Part shown: piece by piece, positions 964 to 63,804 of the stretch | How the letters are laid out: every line of letters begins with the position of its first letter | Numbering within the stretch: position 1 is the first letter of the stretch | DNA from: a virus | Virus genome (UHGV): UHGV-0213393 | Reading direction: 5' to 3' (one strand) | Length of the DNA stretch: 64,000 bases | Position numbers and translations under genes: made by a program | The notes under the pieces: generated by a model | The model's database searches: none | What the model was told of the DNA's origin: nothing | Seen by the model: only the letters and a program-made list of their open reading frames with translations

Positions 964-1111
964 AACTCACCTACACACCGTCAGGCCCAACGCTAATAAA
1001 TGAAACACCCCGCTCTTAGTGTTTCAGGGAGCCAGCTCATTTTTAGCTTGGAAGCAACTTGATTATGAGCTAAGCCTGACATACACTTCAGCGAGAAAAT
1101 GATCAAGTTAA

Positions 1112-1149
1112 AGACACAAAAGCTCTGTTAAAACAGAGCTTTTGTGTCT
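1112..1149. repeat. perfect 38-bp palindrome (18-bp arms, 2-nt centre) upstream of the 1290-3294 cassette; terminator or operator
   Basis: AGACACAAAAGCTCTGTT-AA-AACAGAGCTTTTGTGTCT read directly from the sequence. Confidence 0.6.
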
Positions 1150-1289
1150 TTAAAACATAGATATCATGCCATATATAGTGCCAAAGTTAGTTTTAGACAC
1201 TATATATATTACAAAAGGTAAAAACCGCTTCTACTTTTAACATACACAGAAAAAAAGAAAGCGGTTATAGATAAGGGAAAGGAGGGGTT

Positions 1290-3359: not shown

Positions 3360-3382
3360 CATGTTCAAAGTTCTAACGCAGT

Positions 3383-3795: not shown

Positions 3796-4419
3796 TTATT
3801 GCCCGTATTTTTTACACCATTGCTCTGCCATTTGTTTGGCTAAAGGCCCGGCTACTGCACTGTATTCTGCTGTTTTACTTTGCACACATGAAGCAGATGG
3901 TTTTTTATTTCGCTGCTCGGTTAGTTTGCGCTCATAAGCCATCATGCTATCGAACCCGGCAATATCACTTTGGCGAAGCATTCCCTTTTTAACCAAAAAT
4001 TGCTGCCCCTCTGGCACCAACGCAAGCATAAAAAGAGGTTGCAATAACTCACCTAATCCTTGCTGGCGATACACTTCGAATTGCTGCCATCCCTGACTTA
4101 ATCTGGAAAGAGTATCTTTGGTTGAATAACCTGTTTTTGTTATAGCTTTGTCCGTCAGATATGCTGTATATGCAAAAACGCAAAAGTCAGTTTTACCAAT
4201 AAACTGAGTTCCAACAGGCCGTAATAGAATGCCCTCCCTCTTGCAAAAGTCCATAATTGCCGCTTGTGAATGATCCCCACCAGCGTTATTCATAACCTGC
4301 TGTCCTGCCCTGAATTGTGCAGGTAACGCAGTTGCATTGGCAGTATTAACAGATACGCATCCCAACATAGCCGCGAGCGCGGCCCCTAAAACCCTTAACT
4401 TCACTACACCATCCTTCAT
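3796..4419 (-). CDS. hypothetical secreted protein (N-terminal signal peptide)
   Basis: Hydrophobic N-terminus LRVLGAALAAMLGCVSVNTANA; no recognised catalytic motif. Confidence 0.5.
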   Translation of the reverse strand: MKDGVVKLRVLGAALAAMLGCVSVNTANATALPAQFRAGQQVMNNAGGDHSQAAIMDFCKREGILLRPVGTQFIGKTDFCVFAYTAYLTDKAITKTGYSTKDTLSRLSQGWQQFEVYRQQGLGELLQPLFMLALVPEGQQFLVKKGMLRQSDIAGFDSMMAYERKLTEQRNKKPSASCVQSKTAEYSAVAGPLAKQMAEQWCKKYGQ

Positions 4420-4633
4420 GTAAACAAAATGAAGTTTTATGTTATAAAAACAATTAACTACATCAACATGATTTAGGCCAAATTTCGGTCAAAAAATAAA
4501 ATCCACAAAAAGTGGTTGACACTATTTTGGAAATCACAAACTACACATAATCCATCGCGCTAACGGCTCCCGTTGAAGGTTCTTTTGACGATTAACTTTC
4601 AGCCGAAGCGCGGTAGGGAGTCATAACGCCAAA

Positions 4634-8686: not shown

Positions 8687-8830
8687 CACAGATTCCTTCT
8701 CTCTGAAAGTATAGTAGTCCCAATATGGGACAATGTAAAGCACTTTAGTCCCATGCTGGGATATGAATTGAAATCACAATCTCCAGACAATGCCCCTCGA
8801 TACCAGATAAATCGACCTTTGAGGACGCTT

Positions 8831-12044: not shown

Positions 12045-12094
12045 CAAAATGCAAAACTGTGTTAGATAATTGAGTTTTATTTTCTAACATAGTT

Positions 12095-17329: not shown

Positions 17330-17470
17330 AGTTAGATAGCGTAAAAAGCATCAAACTAGAGACGCAATAGAGACACAAAAGAGACTTAGATGATACATGA
17401 TGTACCCACGATACCCGTTTGAGACAAATCAGAGACAAATGTGAGAAGTAAGAAATCTGAAGAGTGAAAA
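17330..17470. repeat. parC-like centromere: about six direct 11-bp AGAGACA-type iterons upstream of parM
   Basis: AGAGACGCAAT, AGAGACACAAA, AGAGACTTAGA, TGAGACAAATC, AGAGACAAATG read from sequence. Confidence 0.5.
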
Positions 17471-17509
17471 TCACAAAGTGGAGAAGATTTAAGAAAAAGG
17501 AGGTGTTAG

Positions 17510-19117: not shown

Positions 19118-19331
19118 TTATACCCCTTGCATAGTGCCAGAGGACACGCCTGTGCTGTTAAACAAGTATCCGGCATACACTGAACAGTTATTCAGCACTA
19201 TCGATGAATGCAACCAACGAAACGCACTGAATAACCAAAGGAATAGGGAGATTTGGGAAGGGAAGGGGGTTAAGGCTCCTGAAGCCAGATGTCCTGGCTG
19301 TCAGCTTCTTCGAAACCGTGACAGACGTTAA
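18984..19331 (+). CDS. o-spanin (Rz1-like) lipoprotein, start embedded in the +1 frame of the i-spanin gene
   Basis: Lipobox LMTLSGC after MPGLMMCVC; Pro-rich mature part; overlapping-gene architecture. Confidence 0.45.
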   Translation: MPGLMMCVCLMTLSGCSGNGQKKSISVPMQITVEATSKPQGNLIDYTPCIVPEDTPVLLNKYPAYTEQLFSTIDECNQRNALNNQRNREIWEGKGVKAPEARCPGCQLLRNRDRR

Positions 19332-19752
19332 AGTCACTCAAGCGATACTGGCGCTGACGGCCTCTATTTCGCTCATGCCAATGCATATATCCACCAGCAA
19401 ATGCCAGCGGACAATCGCTATAGTCGATGTAGCCAATACCATTACCCAAACGCGCTTCGCGCGCCCCGGCTTTCCAGGACAGCAGAAAAGAGTCACGATC
19501 TGCCAGCATGACTACAAAATCATCCGGATCGCCTATGCAGTGAAGAATGCCTGCCTTGCATAACTGTTTGAGTGCCTTGGACTGACTCAGGATGTCTTCA
19601 CCGTAATACTGAAAACAATCATCAACAATAGCAGGATAGCCAGCGGGTGGATTCAGGCTGGTTGGTATAGCTGACGCGATAGCCAGCATTAAACGATATT
19701 GTGTTTTCGATGGGTTCGCGTGACTCATGTTTCCTCTACTCACTGTCTCCAT
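19270..19752 (-). CDS. hypothetical protein
   Basis: ORF only; start may be the internal MSHANPSK. Confidence 0.4.
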   Translation of the reverse strand: METVSRGNMSHANPSKTQYRLMLAIASAIPTSLNPPAGYPAIVDDCFQYYGEDILSQSKALKQLCKAGILHCIGDPDDFVVMLADRDSFLLSWKAGAREARLGNGIGYIDYSDCPLAFAGGYMHWHERNRGRQRQYRLSDFNVCHGFEEADSQDIWLQEP

Positions 19753-20132
19753 GCATTTTTCAGCTCCGGAATATCAGCCATTTCAACCAGCTTCCGAAGC
19801 CCCGCGCTGACCTTCCCATTACCAACCGCAGCAAGCCAATCCCTTACTGACTTCGGCATATAAAGAGTGGTCGTTACAGGATCTTCCACTCTTACAGGCG
19901 TGCCAATTTGAGGCCACTTAACAGATGCCAAAACGTCAGAAGGCGGGGTAAGCGCGGGAACATTAAGAATAGCCTTTCCTGAATGGAGAATCACGATTCG
20001 TTCAGCCAGGGAAAGAATGTCTCTTTCAGTAAGGATTGATGACAGTTGAGCTTCTACAAGGCATCTGCTGCTTGTATTCAGAGAATGGCTTTTAGCACCA
20101 TTTTTGTATGAAACGAAGATCTTGTACGCCAT
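19740..20132 (-). CDS. hypothetical protein with possible C-terminal DNA-binding helix
   Basis: ORF divergent from the capsid-candidate operon across a motif-bearing intergenic region. Confidence 0.4.
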   Translation of the reverse strand: MAYKIFVSYKNGAKSHSLNTSSRCLVEAQLSSILTERDILSLAERIVILHSGKAILNVPALTPPSDVLASVKWPQIGTPVRVEDPVTTTLYMPKSVRDWLAAVGNGKVSAGLRKLVEMADIPELKNAWRQ

Positions 20133-20291
20133 TTGTTCTAATGTTTTATGTTAGAAAATTAAGATTAAACCATACTAACACAAGATTGTTAACGAAAATT
20201 ATTTTTCTAATGCTATTGACTAAATAACAAAGTGAGTATTGTCACCTCGTCAAAAGAATCTTCACGCCGCGCCCGAATTTAGGGTTTAACC
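20132..20291. promoter_or_regulatory. divergent control region carrying operator-like TTCTAAT/ATGTTAGAAAAT motifs
   Basis: TTGTTCTAATGTTTTATGTTAGAAAATTAAG and ATTTTTCTAATGC; the same 16-mer TATGTTAGAAAATTAA recurs at about 52813. Confidence 0.4.
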
Positions 20292-21989
20292 GTGAACAAG
20301 AACATTGAGCCAGCTCGTAAGCGCGAGCGCGAGATTATGAATCGGGCGGCAAGCGTCATGGCTATGACCGTCGATCCAACCACTGATGCTGCCGGTAACA
20401 TGATTACCGACAACGAAGTGATGATGGCTAACCTGGAAAAAGCTATCCAGAAAGAGCCTATGTTTGAAGGCGTTGGACCAGAAGCAGCTCGCCAGATCAT
20501 TGGTAGCTGGGCCATGTCTATTCATGAATACAAACGCCAGCATGGGCATTATCCGGCAAGCGATGTATTAGCCAACGCCCATGTAGCACTTGAGCGCCTG
20601 ATGATGGAGTCCGCTAAAGAGACGCATGAAGGCGCTGGCAAAGCCATGTTTGAATCAGTAGCCAAGGACATGCGCACCTCCGATGGTGTAATGAAGGTTG
20701 CACAATATGCCGCACTGATCCTGCCTGCTTCTCTCGGCGCAGCCACCAGCGACGCATGTACGTTTATCCCTTGTGATCGTGATGAAACCAATATTTACGA
20801 GCTGACCAACGTTGCTGGTACAAAATTCGGTACATTCGAGCAGGGCGATGAGCTGAACATGCAATCTGCGGGCGTGTATTCGCAGATGAAACGCCTGTAC
20901 ATCCTGACCGAAAAAGGCGATGGCAGCAAAACCACCTTCCAGTTTGATATCCAGAACTTCGAAGGCCAGGCCTGCCCGCTGCGCCAGGGCTACAACAAAC
21001 TGCTGATTAACCGCAAACCGTCCAAAGTAGATGATGGTGACGGCAACCTGTATTTCAACGACAAAGACGTCAACGGCAACTCTTTCTCTGCTACAGCAAA
21101 AGTTAAATACGATACCGGCGTTATCGATATCACCTTTACTGAAGCACCAGCAGAAGGCACAGAAATCGCTGTTCAGGTTGAAATCAACATTGAACGCAAT
21201 CCTAGCCTGATCCCAGTCATTAACCAGTCCATGCGCAATTACGCCCTGCGCCCGTCGCAGTACGTGATCGCATCCGAACATACGGTTATGACAGCATCTG
21301 ACCTGAGCCGTGAACACGGACTCGAACTGGCAGCATTGCAATTCTCCGCAATGCGCAACTGGATTTCCCACGAAATCGATATGATGCGCCTGCGCACCCT
21401 GGTATTCCATACCGTTTACGGTCGTGAATTTGACGTGGCACTGCCGGAAGCGCAGAACTACGAATCGTGGGTTGGTTTAATTCGCCATGTAGTGAACGCG
21501 CTGTCACAGGATATGGCTGACCGCACCCTGACTACCGGTATCCGTGGTGGCTTTGCTGGTGGCGATGCTGCTAACTTCCTGCGTTCCTTACCGCCGCAGC
21601 ACTTCCAGTTGGCACCTGGCTATGTACAGTCGCCATACATTCAATACATCGGCACCCTGTTTGGTTCCATTCGTATCTACGAAGTGCCGAAGCCTATCTG
21701 CAAACAATTCCAGGAACATGGCTACGACTTTGGCCTGGACGACATCTACTTCTATGGTCGTGGCGAAGGCATTGGTAAAGCTGGCCTGGTCGCTGGTGAT
21801 GCTGTGCCTGCTATTCCGTACGTCCACGAAACAAATCCAGCCCTGGTAAACCGCACCACTCTTTGGGGTACAGCAATCAACGATGTGCATCCGCGCAACG
21901 GTGAGAACTATTTCACTCGCCTTCGTCTGACACGTTCGAAAGAAGGTGCGATTGACATGTTGAGCGGGCAAATCAACGAAAAAAAGTAG
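20292..21989 (+). CDS. large virion structural protein (major capsid protein candidate)
   Basis: 565 aa, first gene of the structural operon; ends ...NEKK with an A_AAA_AAG heptamer at the stop; no signature motif. Confidence 0.4.
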   Translation: MNKNIEPARKREREIMNRAASVMAMTVDPTTDAAGNMITDNEVMMANLEKAIQKEPMFEGVGPEAARQIIGSWAMSIHEYKRQHGHYPASDVLANAHVALERLMMESAKETHEGAGKAMFESVAKDMRTSDGVMKVAQYAALILPASLGAATSDACTFIPCDRDETNIYELTNVAGTKFGTFEQGDELNMQSAGVYSQMKRLYILTEKGDGSKTTFQFDIQNFEGQACPLRQGYNKLLINRKPSKVDDGDGNLYFNDKDVNGNSFSATAKVKYDTGVIDITFTEAPAEGTEIAVQVEINIERNPSLIPVINQSMRNYALRPSQYVIASEHTVMTASDLSREHGLELAALQFSAMRNWISHEIDMMRLRTLVFHTVYGREFDVALPEAQNYESWVGLIRHVVNALSQDMADRTLTTGIRGGFAGGDAANFLRSLPPQHFQLAPGYVQSPYIQYIGTLFGSIRIYEVPKPICKQFQEHGYDFGLDDIYFYGRGEGIGKAGLVAGDAVPAIPYVHETNPALVNRTTLWGTAINDVHPRNGENYFTRLRLTRSKEGAIDMLSGQINEKK

Positions 21990-27725: not shown

Positions 27726-27956
27726 ATGTTGACTATAGTCGAAATGGCTTACAACTAATGTTGACTGTACTCGATACCGATCACAAAACATTGACTACAC
27801 ACGACAAGAAATGAGGAAAGATTGACTATAAGCGACAAATACTCAATGAAATAGCTGGTTTATCCATTGATCATGTGAAAAAGTTAATAACTAAATCCGC
27901 CAGCATCAATGTTTGTCGCGTATAGTCAACGCTTGGAATCGCACACAGTCAATGTT
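27726..27956. repeat. incA-like iteron array downstream of repA (about six copies, both orientations)
   Basis: Units of the TGTTGACTATAGTCG type, same core as the upstream iterons. Confidence 0.55.
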
Positions 27957-28839
27957 ATGGATTTCGTTTATGGATCTGGAAACCTATTTTCCGACCATTC
28001 TTTATCTCTGAAAATTTAAGATATTCAACAGCTTCCAAGTCTTTCATGGCTTTACGAATCACACTGTTCTGAACGCTAACCGATGATTTGAGGTTCAATC
28101 TGGCGCGAAGGCGCTCAATACTCACTGGCGCAGGGTTTGAAGGTAACGCTTCGAAAAACGTATAAAGCACCTTGGCTGTCTCTTTCCTGCCAAGTTTATC
28201 GAGCATTTTGAGCTTCAATATTCGCTTATAGTCAACGTAATACAACTCAGACAACTGCTTCTGCGGTTGGATTCTTATAATGTCATTTTCAGTATCAAGT
28301 TCACTAAATGCCAATAAATTCATCTGGATATAACGAACATGTTCTTTGCTGGTGGGCAAGTTGAACTTCAGCAACGTCTGCTGAATACGCGTTAGAGAGT
28401 CGCCAATGCTCTTGCGAAAAGCCTTGGACAGCCGCTTCCTTGGATAACCGCAACGATCCACAAATTCAGAGAATGTCAGGGTGATCACACCATCATTATC
28501 TGGTTTATAGTCAAACAATGCAGATGTAATGCCTATCCACACCTTAAAATCAGTATCCATATCCAGCCGTGGCCCATGAATCTCAATACCCTGATACCCT
28601 TCCTGCTCTACAATCTTCAGGCTGGACAGTTCTTCTGTCGCATCAGTGGAGTTAGTTAAACCGGCGTTCTTGCGACGTAAAGCAACACTGGTAGATTTCA
28701 ATGTGGGAACAAACACCCCAAGCCGCAACAAAGCTATCGGCTGAATAGTGCTATTATTGTTAGGCTTTAAGCTGTGGATTTCTCCGGTATTCCCTGATAT
28801 TTCCTCAACGTTCAGAAAGCCTTTTTTGTCATCTACCAT
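27955..28839 (-). CDS. repA: RepA iteron-binding replication initiator (P1/RepFIB-type)
   Basis: Flanked by iteron arrays; N-terminal STIQPIALLRLGVFVP resembles P1 RepA as I recall it. Confidence 0.8.
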   Translation of the reverse strand: MVDDKKGFLNVEEISGNTGEIHSLKPNNNSTIQPIALLRLGVFVPTLKSTSVALRRKNAGLTNSTDATEELSSLKIVEQEGYQGIEIHGPRLDMDTDFKVWIGITSALFDYKPDNDGVITLTFSEFVDRCGYPRKRLSKAFRKSIGDSLTRIQQTLLKFNLPTSKEHVRYIQMNLLAFSELDTENDIIRIQPQKQLSELYYVDYKRILKLKMLDKLGRKETAKVLYTFFEALPSNPAPVSIERLRARLNLKSSVSVQNSVIRKAMKDLEAVEYLKFSEIKNGRKIGFQIHKRNP

Positions 28840-28879
28840 CCTGTTATTTCCTTGATTGACGGGGCTTTATAGCCAAATG

Positions 28880-29130
28880 AAAGATACTTATCCACAGCCG
28901 TCTGAGGGCTGAGAGAATTATCGCATACAGTCAATGTTTATATCGCATATAGTCAACATTAAATCGCGTACAGTCAACATTAAATCGCACATAGTCAACA
29001 TTAAATCGCACATAGTCAATGTTGATCTCCATTTAGGCCAGTGATGGCGCGGCTCGCAGCGATCCGGGATCTTCTTTGGATCTTACTGGTTCTCTTTGGG
29101 ATCTATTTATTGGATCTACCCTGTGGATAA
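28880..29130. other. oriR-like origin: DnaA box, five iterons, GATC cluster, second DnaA box
   Basis: TTATCCACA at about 28887; six GATC sites between about 29024 and 29115; TGTGGATAA at about 29121. Confidence 0.55.
28919..29024. repeat. incC-like iterons: five tandem 21-bp direct repeats (ATCGCACATAGTCAACATTAA consensus)
   Basis: Five contiguous units read directly from the sequence, immediately upstream of repA. Confidence 0.7.
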
Positions 29131-29203
29131 ATAGGTTAAAGTCAAAATCACACACTCCCTATCCTCCAGCCAAACGAGTACCGACTTTTCTGGAGGAATC
29201 CTT

Positions 29204-36600: not shown

Positions 36601-36716
36601 CAAACCAGGCCCCGCCAACCTGGGTGGGGCCATTTCTCAAAACAAAAGACCACTGGAAATCACAAACTGAACATACTGCCCTTCGATTTATTGCTTGTTA
36701 AAGGGGCTATGTTCGT

Positions 36717-41009: not shown

Positions 41010-41472
41010 ACAATCATAACAATCCAATCAGCACTATTTTTTTGATATTTCAAGCCCTCTTTTGTTGAGGGCTTCATTAGCGTGCGGTTTTGTGTTTTTT
41101 TTGAGCAGCACTGTCCTTCGGCACAAAAAAAGCCCGCCCTCTGGTCAATGACGGCGGGCATAATGAACACCCAGTTAGTAGTATCTGAGAGAGTCGGTAT
41201 TATATTCACTGAATGACGTTTGTGAAGACTCACATGTCATCATTTTGTCCTCAAGAATCAGCTCACATCTTGCGCATTCAAGCGTATTTCTCTTTAAAGC
41301 CGTGTTTGGACCATTTTGTTGATACGCGAATTTGGCATCCTCCACGCTCTGAGTGACGAGGTTTACGGACCACCGGGCCATCATATGCATCCATTTTGTG
41401 TGAATAGCATTTAGTCGGGAAATAACAAACTGGATAAGTTGAAGCCGCGTTAAACGTCATTTCTGGAGGGGT

Positions 41473-47254: not shown

Positions 47255-48660
47255 TTCCTTTGAACCGTGGCCCGGGAAAAACGACCGCTTTCCGTTCAGG
47301 TTCGCTTTCTGATGACTGCCGCCACCAGGCGCTTTCGTGACTGCTCCCCGCCCTGTCGGGCAAGGCTTCCCACTTCTCAGGCCGCAACCGTCTGTTCGAC
47401 GGATTTACGCTGGCCTCCATGGACAGAAACGACGAGTCCCGCCGCCTTTAGTTCCAGTATTCCTTTTTGCCGGATGTTGAGTGCCGCATTGATATCGCGG
47501 TCATGTTCTCCTCCACATTCAGGGCATCGCCAGATGCGTTTATGAAGTGGCATTTCCGGCGTTTTGTAACCACAACAATGGCACGTTTTCGAACTGGCAA
47601 ACCACTGGTCGAGTTTTACCAGGTGAACGCCTTTTGTCGCTGCCTTGTACTCCAGCTTTGTGATGAAGCTGTGCCAGCCAGCATCACCTATCGCTCTTGC
47701 CAGATTGTGGTTTTTCATCATGTTGGCTGTTTTCAGCGTCTCCACAATTACCGCTTGGTTTTCGTCGACAATCGCGCGAGAGAGCTTGTGTTGAAAATCA
47801 GCACGGGCATTCGCCACCCGTTCGTGTAAGGCCGCAAGACGGATTCTGGCCTTTTTACGATTCGCGCTTCCCTTTTGCTTACGGGATAATGCTTTTTGTT
47901 TGCGTCGCAGATTACGACCTGCATTGATGAGATGGCGAGGATTCGGAACTTTTACAGCATCAGAAGTGATGGCATAGTGCTCCAGCCCCATATCCAGACC
48001 TGTAATCTTTTCTTCCTTCAGGTACGTGGGTTTCTCTGGTGCGGAAGCGCCATCGTCACGAAGAATGGAAGCGTAGTATTTCCCCGTTGCAGAACGGGTG
48101 ACAGTGATGCTTTTCAGCTTTCCATGAAGTTCACGATGAAGGCGTGCTTCTATCGGGGCCAGTTTGGGGATTTTGATGGCATTATCCAGCACCTTAATCC
48201 CGACACAGTGATAGCTCGATTGTTTTCCGTGTTTGCGTTTAAACGTCGGGAACCGCGCTTTCAGCTTCGGATTAAAAAAGTTGGAAAATGCCACATCAAG
48301 ATTGATTACCGCCTGTTGCAATGCCATTGAATCAAATTCTTTGAGCCAGGCATACTTACGGGACTTCTTCGCTACAGACAGCAACGGCTTCAAATCTTTG
48401 CGCGGATTTAAATTCACCCCATATCGCCGGTAAGCGTGTTTTTTGATGTGAAGAGCTTTATTGTACGCAAAGCGTACCGCGCCGAACTGGGCATTGAGAT
48501 ACTTTGCCTGTTCCGGTGTTGGATAGATGCGTACTTTTGTTGCTCTTAACATAGTCACTGCTCATTGGTACAGGTTTTTATGCTAACACCGTAATAATAT
48601 TTTTAAAGCCCTGTGGGCTTTTCCGCCTTTCCTCCCCGCCCGCATTGGGCGAGGGTTCTC
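47255..48660 (-). mobile_element. IS200/IS605-family element carrying tnpB only (IS1341-like); boundaries approximate
   Basis: TnpB ORF flanked by subterminal regions sharing CTCCCCGCCC (about 47343 and 48632) and hairpins; no tnpA. Confidence 0.55.
47377..48558 (-). CDS. tnpB: TnpB (OrfB) RNA-guided endonuclease-type transposon protein
   Basis: 393 aa with C-terminal zinc finger CHCCGYK...CPECGGEHDRDINAALNI and typical basic N-terminus. Confidence 0.8.
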   Translation of the reverse strand: MTMLRATKVRIYPTPEQAKYLNAQFGAVRFAYNKALHIKKHAYRRYGVNLNPRKDLKPLLSVAKKSRKYAWLKEFDSMALQQAVINLDVAFSNFFNPKLKARFPTFKRKHGKQSSYHCVGIKVLDNAIKIPKLAPIEARLHRELHGKLKSITVTRSATGKYYASILRDDGASAPEKPTYLKEEKITGLDMGLEHYAITSDAVKVPNPRHLINAGRNLRRKQKALSRKQKGSANRKKARIRLAALHERVANARADFQHKLSRAIVDENQAVIVETLKTANMMKNHNLARAIGDAGWHSFITKLEYKAATKGVHLVKLDQWFASSKTCHCCGYKTPEMPLHKRIWRCPECGGEHDRDINAALNIRQKGILELKAAGLVVSVHGGQRKSVEQTVAA

Positions 48661-48917
48661 GGCGGTTGTTTGCTGAATACTTCACAAGTTTCCTTATGCG
48701 ATTTATCCATCGTGGGCGATAAGAATGGCAACACAAAAGATATAAAACACAACAAAAATGTTTATAAATATAACTTTTGTGTTTGGTGGTTGCGTTTTTG
48801 GAAAAGCATTTCTGCATATGAAAAAACATCAGCATATGGTGAAAACAACGAAAAATTACTGATGAAATCACACACTGGATAAGCTGCCACGAAATCGGAA
48901 ACCTTTTGCGGTGAATC

Positions 48918-51615: not shown

Positions 51616-51734
51616 GATAAAAGCTGGATTAATTTTCTAACACAGTGTGTTTTTATACACTGTTGATCCGACGGCACGTGATCGAGTAGGATCGCGGTCA
51701 CTGCTCCGGTAGCGACTGCCAAAAAAAGCAAAAG

Positions 51735-51758
51735 CCGCTGAGTAGCGGCTTTTGGGTG
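51735..51758 (+). terminator. rho-independent terminator AAGCCGCT-GAGT-AGCGGCTTTT
   Basis: Hairpin and T run read from sequence. Confidence 0.5.
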
Positions 51759-51814
51759 TATAAATCCACTGGCATAGATTTATACGGTAGATAGATTTTT
51801 CACGGAACTATCTG

Positions 51815-52762
51815 GTGAGTATTTTAAATTCAGTTTCAGTTACTTTCAACACTTCTGAGTATAAAAACAACACTGAATACCACAAAAAAATCAAAGGTCA
51901 TCAGTTGAGTTTTTTTGCTCGTCATAGCGGTTTTCTTTCCCCTTCACATAGCGCCATTATTGCCGAGTTTGCCAACCTGGCAGGAGCTACCGATGAATAC
52001 ATGATCCGTCGCTCATATGCTGATATGTCCGTGATTACAGGACGCAGCATTTCTACTGTGCGCCGGGCATTTACCGAAGCGACGAAGTGCGGAATGCTTG
52101 TTAAGCAGCATCAGGTAGCGAGTAACAATGCTCAGGTGTGTAACGTGTACCGGTTTACAACACAATTTCTCCACTTCATTCATGTAGCAATGGAGATAGG
52201 GAGTAAGCAGGGCATCAAATTTGCCAACGCCACAAAACTGGTTAAGCAGTTGATTTCAAAGGTTCGTTATTTTTTTGAAACTGGGAACCCCCTGTTCAAA
52301 TTGAACAAGTCCCCCCATGTTCAAAATGAACAGCCAATAGAAAATAAGAGTCACTCTATAGCCAAAAGAAGAGAAAGATCATGCGCGGTTCAGCCAAAGG
52401 CTTCACCAGCAGATAGTTCTCAAGCGGATAATGGCTTGACAGTAATCAGGGAAGAACATACCAACCACTGCCTGGCGGCAGCAAAAGCGAGAGCTGCAAA
52501 GCGTCGTTCAGACGAGGGGTACGCAAAACGGCAGGCTCTGTATCGTACCGCTGAAAAACTGGCAAAAAAATTTGCATGGTTACGTAGTGCTACCACAGTG
52601 AATAAGCCCAAACGATCCAGCGCCCTGGATTTCTCTATGGATTATTCTGCTTCCCAGGGATGTGCAACCATCAATGAAGCATTTGACCTGATGAAACAGC
52701 GTGGCTATAGGTCTGAATTTGACCGGGAAGACTGGTCAATTCCGGAGGGCTTTCGGGGATGA
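51815..52762 (+). CDS. HTH-domain protein (regulator or replication-associated), function unknown
   Basis: HTH-like segment YADMSVITGRSISTVRRAFTEA; operator-like motif upstream at about 51640. Confidence 0.45.
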   Translation: MSILNSVSVTFNTSEYKNNTEYHKKIKGHQLSFFARHSGFLSPSHSAIIAEFANLAGATDEYMIRRSYADMSVITGRSISTVRRAFTEATKCGMLVKQHQVASNNAQVCNVYRFTTQFLHFIHVAMEIGSKQGIKFANATKLVKQLISKVRYFFETGNPLFKLNKSPHVQNEQPIENKSHSIAKRRERSCAVQPKASPADSSQADNGLTVIREEHTNHCLAAAKARAAKRRSDEGYAKRQALYRTAEKLAKKFAWLRSATTVNKPKRSSALDFSMDYSASQGCATINEAFDLMKQRGYRSEFDREDWSIPEGFRG

Positions 52763-53401
52763 TGTTGCGATTGACTGTACAATAACCGTGCGGCGGGAAT
52801 TTCATCGCTCGAAAATGTATGTTAGAAAATTAAATTGATGTTTCTAATCAAGAATGTATGATTTACATCGTCACAAAAAAACAGCATCTGATAAAAATTC
52901 TGTTGATCTTTCTAATGTTCAGGCTTATATTCATGCCGTCGTAGCAAATTCTGCGACCAGGTTTGACAGCCTGAATGTTAGTGCGGACAACCGCAGATTT
53001 CCGATATTGCGGTATTTTTGTGTCCGTAAACCGCGTTACGCCCGAATTATGGTGGGGCGTGATGGGGAGGCTTCGGCCTGCTGGTTTCACTAACGCCAGT
53101 CTGTCAACCCTGTCACGTCCTGCCACCTGTTTGACAGCGGGTAGCAGGTTGTTAAACCTGTTAGTGAGGCCGTAACTATGGTTAATGCCAATCCTTGCTC
53201 ACGTCCAGAATTCATCTGGCGTTTCCACTCCCTGCAAAAACACTGCGATCACTTCGCAATTGCCGCAACCGAAAAAGAAGCCCGTTCTCTGATCCCTGAT
53301 CAATATGGTGTTCTTACTGGTCGTTTCTCTACTTCCCCACAACCAAACACTAATCCCTGGTATCGCAATATTACCAATCCCGGCATTGCGGAGGCTCACT
53401 G

Positions 53402-54109
53402 ATGGATATCTGCATTCTCGAAAAGCCATCAATGACCAGCATTGAGATCGCGGAGCTGGTGGGAAGTCGTCCAGATAACGTAAAAATATCAATAGAGCGC
53501 CTGGCTAAATCTGGAGTTATTCAACTTCCTGCATTGCAGGTTTTCGAAAAAATCAATAACTTAGGACTACGCCGTAGTGTCGAGGCTTACGTCTTCGAAG
53601 GCGAGCAAGGCAAGCGCGATAGTATTATCGTCGTCGCGCAGCTCTCTCCCGAATTCACCGCCCGGCTGGTGGACCGCTGGCGCGAACTGGAAGAACAAGT
53701 ACGCCAGCCGTTGACCGAAATAGAGATGATCGCTGCAATGGCTGCAAATGCAGTTCAGCAGCAAAAGCGGCTTCATGTTGTTGAGTCAAAGGTTAGCCAG
53801 GTTGCTGAAACCGTCGAGCAAATAAAGAAAGGCAATATTCCGGAAGGCTACATTGGCTATCGCCAGTTAGCGGCGAAATGCGGCCTGACTGAAGCCAAAT
53901 GCCGCAACCTGGTCAACGCTTACCAGATCCCCACAGATACTCATGAGTTTTTGACGCCAGAGGGGGTATTGTCGCGTCGTACTATTGTGGCCTTATCTCC
54001 CTTCATGAATGCCTTTACCCTGATGATGTCGGAGGCTGAACACCGAGGAAAACGCTGGTATCACCCAAGGATGGGGCAATTCCAGGTGATCGGTTGGGGA
54101 GGCGAGTGA
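53402..54109 (+). CDS. rha: Rha-family phage regulatory protein
   Basis: N-terminal MTSIEIAELVGSRPDNV typical of Rha; likely start at the internal MTSIEIAEL. Confidence 0.75.
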   Translation: MDICILEKPSMTSIEIAELVGSRPDNVKISIERLAKSGVIQLPALQVFEKINNLGLRRSVEAYVFEGEQGKRDSIIVVAQLSPEFTARLVDRWRELEEQVRQPLTEIEMIAAMAANAVQQQKRLHVVESKVSQVAETVEQIKKGNIPEGYIGYRQLAAKCGLTEAKCRNLVNAYQIPTDTHEFLTPEGVLSRRTIVALSPFMNAFTLMMSEAEHRGKRWYHPRMGQFQVIGWGGE

Positions 54110-54829: not shown

Positions 54830-55016
54830 GCTCCGAATGAAAAAAGAGCAATAACTATGTTGAGAATGTGATTTCTATTACACCAAACATTATTAAACGG
54901 CATTCATCTTTAACTTTATTCAATGTATTATCTAACAGAAAAGTTAAACTGCGCTAAGTTAGTGATAACATTGGTTATTGTTAGCTTGCGTTATCTATTT
55001 GAGTAAAGAGATTGTC

Positions 55017-63171: not shown

Positions 63172-63357
63172 AAATAACAAGTTGGGTAAATGACATACAA
63201 TTTACCCGGCTTGTTGACCCGCATCACCATTTACTCTAAAAACAAGTCCGACCTGTTGCATCCGCCTATCTCTTCAGTAGTATTCCCCTCGGTTTTGATA
63301 AAACTAACGCTCTTGTTATTATCGTGTTCATGATTTCAGGAAGTTTGTGTTAGAAAT

Positions 63358-63804
63358 TTGATGCGAAGACGCAGGCATCATAGTGCGTATTCTGAAATAT
63401 CCCCGCACGCTGCTGCACTGAGAGAGTTAGAAAGAAATCCTGACTTATTAAAACGGAATTACGAACATTACGAACAGGTTCGCGTTCTGGATTGGCTGTA
63501 TCGCAACATGCGATACGTGTATGAGCACACACACTCAACACCGAACGGCGGCCTGAGAGGCAAAAGGACAGCCATTAAGATGGTGGCAGAAGGTCAGAAG
63601 AAGGGCTATCCGGACCTTTCTATTGACCTTGCTCGTGGTGGGTATCACGGAATGCGCATTGAGATGAAGCACGGGAGAAACCGTCTGACTCCCGAACAGC
63701 TCGTCTGGATGACTCGCCTCACGGAAGCAGGCTATTACTGCTTTGAGGCGCGCAGTGCCGATGAAGCCATAAAAGCTATCACGGAATATGTAAATCTTGA
63801 TTAA
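63358..63804 (+). CDS. VRR-NUC domain nuclease
   Basis: PD-(D/E)xK-type pattern GYPDLSIDL...GMRIEMKHG; operator-like motif immediately upstream. Confidence 0.55.
   Translation: MMRRRRHHSAYSEISPHAAALRELERNPDLLKRNYEHYEQVRVLDWLYRNMRYVYEHTHSTPNGGLRGKRTAIKMVAEGQKKGYPDLSIDLARGGYHGMRIEMKHGRNRLTPEQLVWMTRLTEAGYYCFEARSADEAIKAITEYVNLD

What the first reader, a model, noticed from the sequence alone, without database searches (positions are those of the whole stretch)
52808..52852. Dispersed operator-like motif TATGTTAGAAAATTAA in at least five intergenic regions
The 16-mer TATGTTAGAAAATTAA occurs identically at about 20148 and 52813, with close variants or reverse complements at about 12084 (ATTTTCTAACAT), 51640 (ATTTTCTAACAC) and 63347 (TGTTAGAAAT). 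Half-site-like TTCTAAT copies sit nearby at 20138, 20200, 52841 and 52907, often as inverted pairs 10-18 bp apart. Every site is just upstream of an operon start (rdgC/MTase, capsid operon, HTH gene 51815, rha, VRR-NUC gene). This pattern resembles the multi-site operator network of a master repressor, as described for P1 C1 with a TCTAAT-containing operator (from memory), or a shared late-activator site. The 600-bp non-coding leader before rha holds several copies and could also encode a regulatory RNA.
Basis: partly seen in the sequence, partly recalled or inferred. Interest (0 to 1): 0.55.

Follow-up and report, generated by a model that had tools for sequence, protein, structure and literature searches.

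The report
Repressor operator sites of a D6-like phage
The repeated 16-base motif is real and is most likely the binding site of the master lysogeny repressor (a distant relative of phage P1's C1 protein) of a D6-like plasmid prophage; it marks the same early genes that C1 controls in P1, so it is an expected kind of feature with a new sequence.

Summary
T(A/G)TGTTAGAAAATTAA occurs 7 times at up to 3 mismatches, against 0.97 expected, and every copy is non-coding. It is also the top 9-mer shared between intergenic regions.

The window is a D6-like, P1-related phage-plasmid, 82-91% identical to phage D6. Four motif loci sit where P1 has experimentally defined C1 operators:
- upstream of c4-icd-ant (P1 Oc4)
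- upstream of repL (OrepL)
- upstream of rdgC/hrdC-methylase (Odmt)
- at the pmgM start (O26)

In D6 and in a complete close relative (16 and 19 copies), the motif also precedes the C1 homologue, lpa, ref and pmgS.

P1 has no copy of this motif, and the window has no P1-type operator. A different motif, GAAATCACAAACT followed by a -10 box, marks the late operons, so the "late activator" alternative is rejected.

The "600-bp leader" is the immI leader and encodes the C4 antisense RNA (Rfam, 68.8 bits).

Paired sites always have an 18-bp offset, which differs from the geometry of P1's bivalent operators.

Binding by the repressor is inferred, not shown, and the repressor gene lies outside the window.

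Verdict: a new member of a known kind, of modest interest.

The parts
52818..52833 (+). Strong operator copy (TATGTTAGAAAATTAA, 27.2 bits). It is the positional equivalent of P1 Oc4/Op51 and abuts the -35 of the upstream immI promoter.
   Evidence: P1 annotation of Oc4 overlapping the P2c4 -35. Conserved block in 6 D6-like elements while the upstream flank diverges.
52836..52851 (-). Weak inverted partner site (TTGATTAGAAACATCA) at the canonical 18-bp offset. It overlaps the -35 and spacer of the promoter.
   Evidence: 1.6 bits, above the 99.9th percentile of background, best offset = 18. The TTTCTAA core is invariant in alignment A1.
52835..52862 (+). Sigma-70-like promoter TTGATG-16-TATGAT, a P2c4/P51a-like promoter presumed to be repressor-controlled.
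   Evidence: Both hexamers are conserved in A1. The function is inferred from P1.
52903..52931 (+). Sigma-70-like promoter TTGATC-17-TATATT, homologous to P1 P1c4/P51b. Homology to P1 starts exactly here.
52925..52977 (+). a1/b1 target sites of the C4 antisense RNA (Rfam RF03163).
   Evidence: 54.4 bits, gathering score 46.7.
53045..53130 (+). C4 antisense RNA gene (Rfam RF01695) of the immI operon.
   Evidence: 68.8 bits, gathering score 45. Identical to P1 at the loop and target bases that differ in D6.
53178..54109 (+). icd (53178-53402) and the Rha/Ant-type antirepressor gene (53402-54109). These are the genes downstream of the operator.
   Evidence: D6 annotation. PHROG anti-repressor Ant, 8e-47. 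Pfam HTH_24 and Phage_pRha.
51629..51644 (-). Strong operator copy (TGTGTTAGAAAATTAA, 27.5 bits) upstream of repL (51815-52762). It is the positional equivalent of P1 OrepL/Op53.
   Evidence: repL homology to P1 RepL is 29% identity, E 1e-30. P1 annotation. Conserved in 6 relatives.
12058..12091 (.). Bivalent operator made of two inverted copies, 12058-12073 (+) and 12076-12091 (-), separated by a 2-bp gap. It lies 13 bp upstream of the rdgC/hrdC ATG (12104) and is the positional equivalent of P1 Odmt/Op68.
   Evidence: RdgC Pfam 1e-100. P1 Odmt upstream of uhr-hrdC-dmt. Both halves are conserved in D6 while the flanks diverge.
20147..20162 (+). Strong operator copy (27.2 bits) in the divergent region between ORF 19740-20132 (-; start codon 15 bp away) and the capsid gene (20292, +). 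It has no P1 counterpart.
   Evidence: Conserved in D6 and the E. marmotae plasmid. The ORF belongs to phrog_7830, function unknown.
63346..63361 (+). Operator copy (TGTGTTAGAAATTTGA, 21.8 bits) overlapping the start of the pmgM-like VRR-NUC gene. It lies 24 bp downstream of the -10 of a strong promoter-like site (63295-63322) and is comparable to P1 O26/Oppp, which flank pmgL-pmgM.
   Evidence: 56% identity to P1 PmgM. Core conserved in D6. P1 annotation.
4438..4453 (+). Moderate candidate copy (TATGTTATAAAAACAA, 15.4 bits; it lacks the invariant G8). It lies between ORF 3796-4419 (-) and mat (4646, +). Uncertain.
   Evidence: Equivalent copies in D6 (72198) and the E. marmotae plasmid (77545).

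Best explanation
The motif T(A/G)TGTTAGAAAA(T/C)TAA is the operator of the prophage master repressor of a D6-like, P1-related phage-plasmid. That repressor is a 345-aa distant homologue of P1 C1 (Pfam PF27008, Phage_P7_repressor_C1). Its gene lies about 9 kb beyond the right end of the window.

In the lysogen the repressor would bind each asymmetric 16-bp site. Some sites are single. Others are inverted pairs with an 18-bp offset.

Binding would block transcription of the early or lysogeny-antagonising units:
- the upstream promoter of the c4-icd-ant (immI) operon
- repL (lytic replication)
- the rdgC-methylase operon
- the pmgM-like nuclease gene
- an uncharacterised gene pair divergent from the capsid gene
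- outside the window, lpa (the late activator), ref, pmgS and the repressor gene itself (autoregulation)

What is shown: the motif's reality, its enrichment, its intergenic location, its conservation, its positional equivalence to P1 operators, and its co-occurrence with the C1 homologue. What is inferred: binding by that protein, and repression by occlusion or roadblock.
For: 1. Enrichment and location: 7 copies against 0.97 expected, all non-coding. It is also the top intergenic k-mer.

2. Identity of the element: it is D6-like. The closest complete relative is E. marmotae plasmid NZ_CP099353.1.

3. Whole-genome counts: 16 copies in D6 against about 1.2 expected, and 19 copies in the E. marmotae plasmid against about 1.3. 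These include a copy 15 bp upstream of the C1 homologue, copies upstream of lpa, ref and pmgS, and a copy at the 3' end of ref.

4. Positional equivalence: these places match P1's annotated, experimentally defined C1 operators Oc1, Olpa, Oref, Omat, OpmgR, Oc4, OrepL, Odmt and O26.

5. Positive control and exclusivity: the same type of scan recovers 12 P1 operators in half of P1. P1 has 0 copies of the new motif, and the window has 0 P1-type operators.

6. The repressor: the C1 homologue is 21% identical to P1 C1 (E 2e-7) and carries PF27008.

7. Distant relatives: contigs whose C1 is only 43-50% identical still carry the TGTTAGAAAA core upstream of c1 and at other syntenic spots such as lpa, the pmgM-like gene, DUF968/pdcB and next to cre.

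8. Footprints: the operator and adjacent promoter hexamers are conserved where the flanks diverge.

9. Architecture at c4: the operator abuts the -35 of the upstream promoter while a second, P1-homologous promoter is left free, as in P1.

10. Sequence relationship: the reverse complement of the consensus aligns with the P1 consensus at 9 of 14 positions around a shared TCTAA core (my alignment of the consensus with the consensus in PMC8546580).
Against: - No binding or expression data exist.
- The repressor gene is not in the window (tblastn), so the link rests on relatives.
- The consensus scan found sigma-70-like promoters next to only two of the five loci.
- The 20147 locus has no P1 counterpart.
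- The 4438 copy lacks an otherwise invariant base.
- Positional equivalence shows that 'the repressor of this regulon' binds here. Assigning it to the C1 homologue rather than another protein is an inference.
- I could not read the D6 genome paper (Gilcrease & Casjens 2018), which may already describe or contradict these sites.
Confidence: 0.85

Rival explanations
1. The motif is the recognition element of the late-gene activator (Lpa homologue), i.e. part of the late promoters.
For: One copy lies in the intergenic region before the capsid gene. The P1-type -22 box AAGTNACTT is not enriched in the window, so the late promoter element of this lineage must differ from P1's.
Against: The motif precedes early or immunity genes (repL, c4-ant, rdgC). 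In relatives it precedes lpa and c1 themselves. It has no fixed orientation relative to the downstream gene. It is absent upstream of the tail, tail-fibre, lysis and portal operons. A different motif, GAAATCACAAACT followed 2-4 nt later by a -10-like hexamer, sits co-oriented upstream of those late operons: 4529, 8769, 17466, 20220, 29143, 36655, 41418 and 48863 on the + strand and 54863 on the - strand. These include places equivalent to P1 LPmat, LP23, LPsit, LPs, LPdar and LPpro.
Confidence: 0.03
2. The sites are bound by a different DNA-binding protein, either another phage regulator or a host nucleoid or global factor, and not by the C1 homologue.
For: No direct link between protein and site has been shown. 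The motif is A+T-rich, like many nucleoid-protein sites. The D6 group lacks some P1 immunity components such as Lxc (PMC6799933), so its circuitry may differ.
Against: The motif is absent from P1, which grows in the same hosts. That argues against a host factor serving a shared regulon. The motif substitutes for C1 operators at nine or so syntenic positions, including the autoregulatory position just upstream of the C1 homologue in five divergent elements. The information content is high (10 nearly invariant positions), which is unlike nucleoid-protein sites.
Confidence: 0.1
3. The similarity is chance or compositional: A+T-rich promoter regions happen to share a word.
For: Intergenic DNA is A+T-rich, and short pieces such as TTCTAAT occur 13 times in the window without clear enrichment.
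Against: 0 of 100 shuffles reach the observed count. The 16-mer is conserved at orthologous positions across elements that differ by 10-25% in the flanks. Inverted pairs have an exact 18-bp register.
Confidence: 0.01

Closest known systems
C1 repressor operators of phages P1 and P7 (immC regulon; Op2, Op21, Op51, Op53, Op68, Op72, Op82, Op86, Op94, Op99, etc.)
   Same: - Many dispersed copies of one asymmetric 16-17 bp site in intergenic regions.
- Both single and inverted-pair (bivalent) forms.
- The same target genes: c4-ant, repL, hrdC-dmt, pmgL/M, lpa, ref, pmgR/S and c1 itself.
- A homologous repressor (PF27008).
- A shared TCTAA core, with 9 of 14 consensus positions identical when the new motif is read as TTAATTTTCTAACAYA.
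   Different: - The sequence differs: no copy within 3 mismatches of ATTGCTCTAATAAATTT. The repressor is only 21% identical and 62 aa longer.
- The pairs are two 16-mers separated by 2 bp (offset 18; TTAGA...TCTAA cores 19 bp apart). P1's bivalent operators are two 17-mers overlapping by 6 bp (offset 11; TCTAA...TTAGT cores 13 bp apart), so the pairs are oppositely arranged relative to the shared core.
- More loci are bivalent: five strong pairs in the complete relative, against two annotated in P1.
- No Lxc co-repressor homologue was found in the window.
- There is an extra target next to the capsid gene.
- The repL target is not preceded by kilA.
P1 immI operon (P51a/P51b promoters, C4 antisense RNA, icd, ant)
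   Same: The region from 52903 onward is 93% identical to P1. It contains the P1c4 promoter, the a1/b1 targets, the C4 RNA and icd. As in P1, a repressor operator sits at the upstream promoter.
   Different: The operator and upstream-promoter cassette is not homologous to P1's. The antirepressor is a Rha/Roi-type protein of 235 aa, not Ant1/Ant2.
Lpa-dependent late promoters of P1 (-22 box AAGTGACTT plus a -10 box)
   Same: It is also a dispersed intergenic motif in the same genome family.
   Different: The sequence, target genes and orientation rule are all different. The late promoters of this lineage appear to use GAAATCACAAACT.

Membership tests
P1-type C1 operator network (immC regulon) | Many dispersed copies of one asymmetric 16-17 bp site, confined to intergenic or promoter regions. 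| tested here: met
   7 copies in the window against 0.97 expected, all non-coding. 16 copies in D6 and 19 in the complete E. marmotae relative. The motif is not palindromic.
P1-type C1 operator network (immC regulon) | Sites lie at the genes of the C1 regulon (c4-ant, repL, hrdC-dmt, pmgL/M, lpa, ref, pmgR/S, c1). | tested here: met
   Four loci in the window and five more in relatives coincide with annotated P1 operators (searches compared).
P1-type C1 operator network (immC regulon) | A C1-family repressor gene in the same genome, itself preceded by operator(s). | tested here: inconclusive
   Not present in the window. Present in D6, the E. marmotae plasmid and metagenomic relatives, which carry PF27008 and a motif copy 15-35 bp upstream of, or overlapping, the start codon.
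P1-type C1 operator network (immC regulon) | Operator sequence of P1/P7 immunity specificity (ATTGCTCTAATAAATTT). | tested here: not met
   0 matches at up to 3 mismatches in the window, while the same scan finds 12 in half of P1. This is therefore a different specificity: it works like P1's operators but does not belong to the P1/P7 immunity type.
P1-type C1 operator network (immC regulon) | Specific binding by the repressor, and repression of the adjacent promoters. | not testable with these tools
   Needs EMSA or footprinting, ChIP-seq and reporter assays.
P1-type C1 operator network (immC regulon) | Lxc (Bof) co-repressor that strengthens C1 binding. | tested here: not met
   No tblastn hit for P1 Lxc in the window. 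Lxc was also reported as not detected in the D6-like pYU39_89 (PMC6799933). The rest of the genome was not searched.
P1 Lpa-dependent late promoters | A conserved box at a fixed short distance upstream of a -10 hexamer, co-oriented with late (morphogenesis or lysis) operons. | tested here: not met
   The motif occurs in both orientations, at early genes and at lpa itself. Late operons carry another box.
C4 antisense RNA / immI leader (applies to the 'regulatory RNA' part of the finding) | A match to Rfam RF01695 and RF03163 above the gathering score, upstream of icd and an antirepressor. | tested here: met
   68.8 bits and 54.4 bits, with icd and ant downstream.

The most novel reading that the evidence does not exclude
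The D6 lineage may have re-tooled the P1 immunity circuit in three ways, rather than only drifting in sequence.
- Its C1 homologue may recognise a diverged operator and use a different two-site geometry: 34-bp pairs with the sites' TTAA ends facing each other, oppositely arranged to P1's overlapping pairs. It may also work without an Lxc co-repressor.
- It may control additional genes, namely the uncharacterised pair 19270-20132 next to the capsid gene.
- This particular element combines D6-type immC with P1-type immI (c4) specificity through cassette exchange at the P1c4 promoter. If so, immunity modules reassort independently among P1-like phage-plasmids.
Probability: 0.4. Interest if true: 0.45.

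Novelty: new member of a known kind. Interest (0 to 1): 0.3.

Why it matters
D6-like phage-plasmids are common in Escherichia and Salmonella: 106 PLSDB plasmids cover at least 80% of the 600-bp query taken from the end of repL through the c4 gene. Knowing the operator sequence has several uses:
- It defines the repressor's regulon.
- It predicts which elements are homo- or hetero-immune to each other.
- It identifies the early promoters for engineering or induction studies.
- It gives a natural pair of diverged repressor-operator systems (P1 and D6) for studying how an asymmetric-site, monomer-type repressor changes specificity.

It does not reveal a new kind of mechanism.

Tried and rejected
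- Late-activator reading. I searched for the P1 -22 box and found it not enriched. I then found a separate late-promoter-like motif, so this reading was rejected.
- TTCTAAT as a general half-site. Only 52842 fits the pair geometry. 20205 lies in a weak site that is not conserved in D6, and 20136 and 52910 do not score as operators.
- Covariation between repressor and operator. In relatives whose C1 is 43-50% identical the core motif is unchanged. This gives co-occurrence but no covariation signal.
- Close-relative search in viral contigs. It returned only C1 proteins 99-100% identical.
- Literature. The D6 genome paper (PMC5800970) and the P1 genome paper (PMC523184) are not held. Full-text searches for the motif string, and for 'D6-like' together with operator or C1 repressor, found nothing relevant.
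- Pfam scan of both C1 proteins with the local library gave no family. The precomputed annotation gives PF27008.
- Sigma-70 consensus scans found no promoter at the 12058 and 20147 loci.

Full report
**1. The observation**

The exact 16-mer TATGTTAGAAAATTAA occurs at 20147-20162 (+) and 52818-52833 (+). Copies with one mismatch lie at 12076-12091 (-) and 51629-51644 (-). Copies with three mismatches lie at 12058-12073 (+), 63346-63361 (+) and 4438-4453 (+). That makes 7 matches against 0.97 expected, and none of 100 dinucleotide-preserving shuffles reached 7.

I built a weight matrix from 18 sites of this element and of a complete close relative. It separates six strong sites (21.7-27.5 bits) and one moderate site (4438; 15.4 bits) from the background. 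Eight hits reach 12 bits, against 1.05 in Markov simulations.

A crude gene map leaves 8.6% of the window non-coding, and all seven copies lie there. An unbiased k-mer count finds TGTTAGAAA to be the 9-mer shared by the most intergenic segments, 5 of 33.

**2. What the window is**

The window is a P1-related phage-plasmid of the D6 group. It is 82-91% identical to Escherichia phage D6, in reverse orientation. It is 97.8-99.5% identical to E. marmotae plasmid NZ_CP099353.1.

From the D6 annotation and protein comparisons, the genes next to the motif copies are:
- repL, 51815-52762 (29% identical to P1 RepL, E 1e-30)
- icd and a Rha/Ant-type antirepressor, 53178-54109
- rdgC/hrdC followed by methylases, 12104 onward (Pfam RdgC 1e-100)
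- a pmgM-like VRR-NUC gene, 63361-63804 (56% identical to P1 PmgM)
- the divergent pair formed by ORF 19740-20132 and the capsid gene at 20292

The '600-bp leader before rha' is the P1-type immI leader. Rfam finds the C4 antisense RNA at 53045-53130 (68.8 bits) and its a1/b1 targets at 52925-52977 (54.4 bits). The region from 52903 to 53289 is 93% identical to P1.

**3. Comparison with P1's mapped regulatory sites**

The P1 GenBank record annotates the experimentally defined C1 operators and late promoters. The window's motif loci coincide with four of the operators:
- Oc4/Op51, upstream of c4
- OrepL/Op53, upstream of kilA-repL
- Odmt/Op68, upstream of uhr-hrdC-dmt
- O26/Op82 and Oppp/Op83, which flank pmgL-pmgM

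In complete D6-group genomes the motif is found 16 times in D6 and 19 times in the E. marmotae plasmid, against about 1.2-1.3 expected. The additional copies lie:
- 15 bp upstream of the C1 homologue (equivalent to Oc1)
- upstream of lpa (Olpa)
- upstream of ref and at its 3' end (the Oref and Omat positions)
- upstream of pmgS (OpmgR)
- upstream of a pdcB/DUF968 gene
- next to cre

As a positive control, the same kind of scan with the P1 consensus recovers 12 annotated operators in half of P1. P1 contains no copy of the new motif, and the window contains no P1-type operator.

The D6-group repressor is a 345-aa protein. It is 21% identical to P1 C1 over 240 residues (E 2e-7) and is assigned to PF27008 'Phage_P7_repressor_C1'. 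Neither it, nor Lpa, nor an Lxc homologue is encoded in the window. By comparison with the E. marmotae plasmid, c1 would lie about 9 kb beyond the right end of the window.

**4. Conservation**

At the c4 locus, the sequence upstream of the operator differs strongly between the window and five other D6-like elements. The block comprising the operator, the -35 (TTGNTG), the spacer and the -10 (TATGAT) is conserved.

The repL, rdgC, capsid-divergent and pmgM sites are likewise conserved against diverged flanks.

Three metagenomic contigs have a C1 only 43-50% identical. They still carry the TGTTAGAAAA core upstream of c1 and at other syntenic places.

**5. Anatomy**

The motif is asymmetric. Positions 3-8 (TGTTAG) and position 16 are invariant or nearly so, and positions 9-12 (AAAA) are nearly so.

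Strong pairs always consist of two inverted copies whose starts are 18 bp apart, that is, separated by a 2-bp gap with the TTAA ends facing. Examples are 12058/12076 in the window, and lpa, ref, pdcB and the site downstream of pmgS in the relative.

The c4 site has a weak partner at exactly this offset (52836-52851; 1.6 bits, above the 99.9th percentile of background). The partner overlaps the -35 and spacer of the promoter-like site 52835-52862.

The P1-homologous promoter 52903-52931 has no operator. This matches the P1 layout of a C1-controlled upstream promoter and a free downstream promoter (that the downstream promoter is constitutive is my recollection of the P1 literature).

At 63346 the operator lies 24 bp downstream of the -10 of a strong promoter-like site (63295-63322, 10/12 matches plus TG) and overlaps the start codon. 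At 12058/12076 and 20147 it lies 13-15 bp from a start codon. The consensus scan called no promoter at those two loci, so the exact mode of action there (occlusion or roadblock) is inferred.

Read on the other strand (TTAATTTTCTAACAYA), the consensus matches the P1 consensus ATTGCTCTAATAAATTT (PMC8546580) at 9 of 14 aligned positions around TCTAA. This is my own alignment. It suggests divergence from a common operator type. Relative to that shared core, the paired arrangement is opposite to P1's overlapping bivalent operators and is 6 bp wider.

**6. Rivals**

The late-activator alternative fails for three reasons:
- The motif precedes early genes, and in relatives it precedes lpa itself.
- It occurs in either orientation.
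- It is missing from the tail, lysis and portal operons.

Instead, a second motif, GAAATCACAAACT followed after 2-4 nt by a -10-like hexamer, lies co-oriented upstream of the late operons. Its positions are 4529, 8769, 17466, 20220, 29143, 36655, 41418 and 48863 on the + strand and 54863 on the - strand. Most of these lie upstream of late operons, several of which carry annotated late promoters in P1: LPmat, LP23, LPsit, LPs, LPdar and LPpro. The Lpa homologue is only 34% identical to P1 Lpa, and the P1 -22 box is not enriched here.

A host factor is unlikely because P1, which grows in the same hosts, lacks the motif. Binding by some other phage protein cannot be excluded without experiments. 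Chance is excluded by the counts and the conservation.

**7. Novelty**

The kind of system is well known: the C1 operator network of P1 and P7. The D6 GenBank record annotates no operators. I found no paper in the searchable library that describes them. The D6 genome paper itself could not be read, so prior description cannot be excluded.

I rate the finding as a new member of a known kind, with modest interest. The points that go slightly beyond 'P1 with another sequence' are the different pair geometry, the apparent absence of Lxc, an extra target beside the capsid gene, and the mosaic immunity described in section 8.

**8. Side observations**

- **c4 module specificity.** The c4 module of this element carries P1's specificity bases. 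The C4 loop is CACTAAC and the targets are GTTAGTG. D6 has compensating changes in the loop (CGTAAGT) and in both targets (ACTTACG). Homology to P1 begins exactly at the P1c4 -35. The element therefore appears to combine D6-type immC with P1-type immI.
- **Possible antisense RNA.** A leftward promoter-like site (51849 to 51821, 10/12) and an intrinsic terminator (51754-51729 plus a T-run) could produce an antisense RNA of about 95 nt opposite the repL leader. Its fold has z = -6.15, and the region is conserved in D6-like elements. This is reminiscent of P1's PaskilA antisense transcript.
- **Iteron-like repeats.** Repeats of the form ACAGTCAA(C/T) flank the RepB-like gene 27955-28839, and a solitary copy lies at 52771-52778, just after repL.

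Noticed in passing
window 4529-4542, 8769-8782, 17466-17479, 20220-20233, 29143-29156, 36655-36668, 41418-41431, 48863-48876 (+) and 54863-54876 (-): A second dispersed motif, GAAATCACAAACT, is followed 2-4 nt later by a -10-like hexamer. It is co-oriented upstream of late operons (mat, tail genes, upfC, capsid, pmgB-sit, R-S tail fibre, lydA, portal, peptidoglycan hydrolase). It is probably the Lpa-dependent late promoter of the D6 lineage and replaces P1's AAGTGACTT -22 box.
   Followed up: partly
window 52903-53290 (C4 loop about 53092-53098; targets about 52975-52985 and 53160-53170): The c4 module is 93% identical to P1 and carries P1's loop and target bases (CACTAAC / GTTAGTG). D6 has compensating changes in the loop and in both targets (CGTAAGT / ACTTACG). 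The element therefore looks like a mosaic of D6-type immC and P1-type immI, with the junction at the P1c4 -35.
   Followed up: partly
window 51716-51849 (- strand): A promoter-like site (51849 to 51821, TTGAAA-17-TAAAAT) and an intrinsic terminator (51754-51729 plus a T-run) predict an antisense RNA of about 95 nt opposite the repL leader. The fold has three hairpins, -33.6 kcal/mol and z = -6.15. The region is conserved in D6-like elements, there is no Rfam match, and it is analogous to P1's PaskilA antisense transcript.
   Followed up: partly
window 27761-27952 and 28927-29010; solitary copy at 52771-52778: Iteron-like repeats (T/A)(A/T)AGTCAA(C/T) / ACAGTCAA(C/T) flank the RepB-like plasmid replication gene 27955-28839 (-). 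One isolated copy (ATTGACTGTAC) lies just after the repL stop codon, upstream of the c4 operator.
   Followed up: no
window 1106-1150: A long, near-perfect inverted repeat, AAAGACACAAAAGCTCTGTT(TT/AA)AACAGAGCTTTTGTGTCTTT, lies in an intergenic region. It is probably a bidirectional terminator.
   Followed up: no
window 19270-20132 (- strand): Two ORFs of unknown function (phrog_7830 and phrog_8101; homologues of D6 orf52 and orf53) sit directly behind one of the three best operator copies. They are divergent from the capsid gene and have no counterpart in the P1 C1 regulon.
   Followed up: partly
window 47377-48558 (- strand): A 393-aa ORF is annotated as a transposase in the E. marmotae relative (27846-29021). 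[quoted passage not shown]
   Followed up: no
window 3365-3380 (-) and 54924-54939 (-): Two further weak operator-like hits in intergenic DNA (12.1 and 9.1 bits). They are not among the copies within 3 mismatches found in D6 and could be chance.
   Followed up: no
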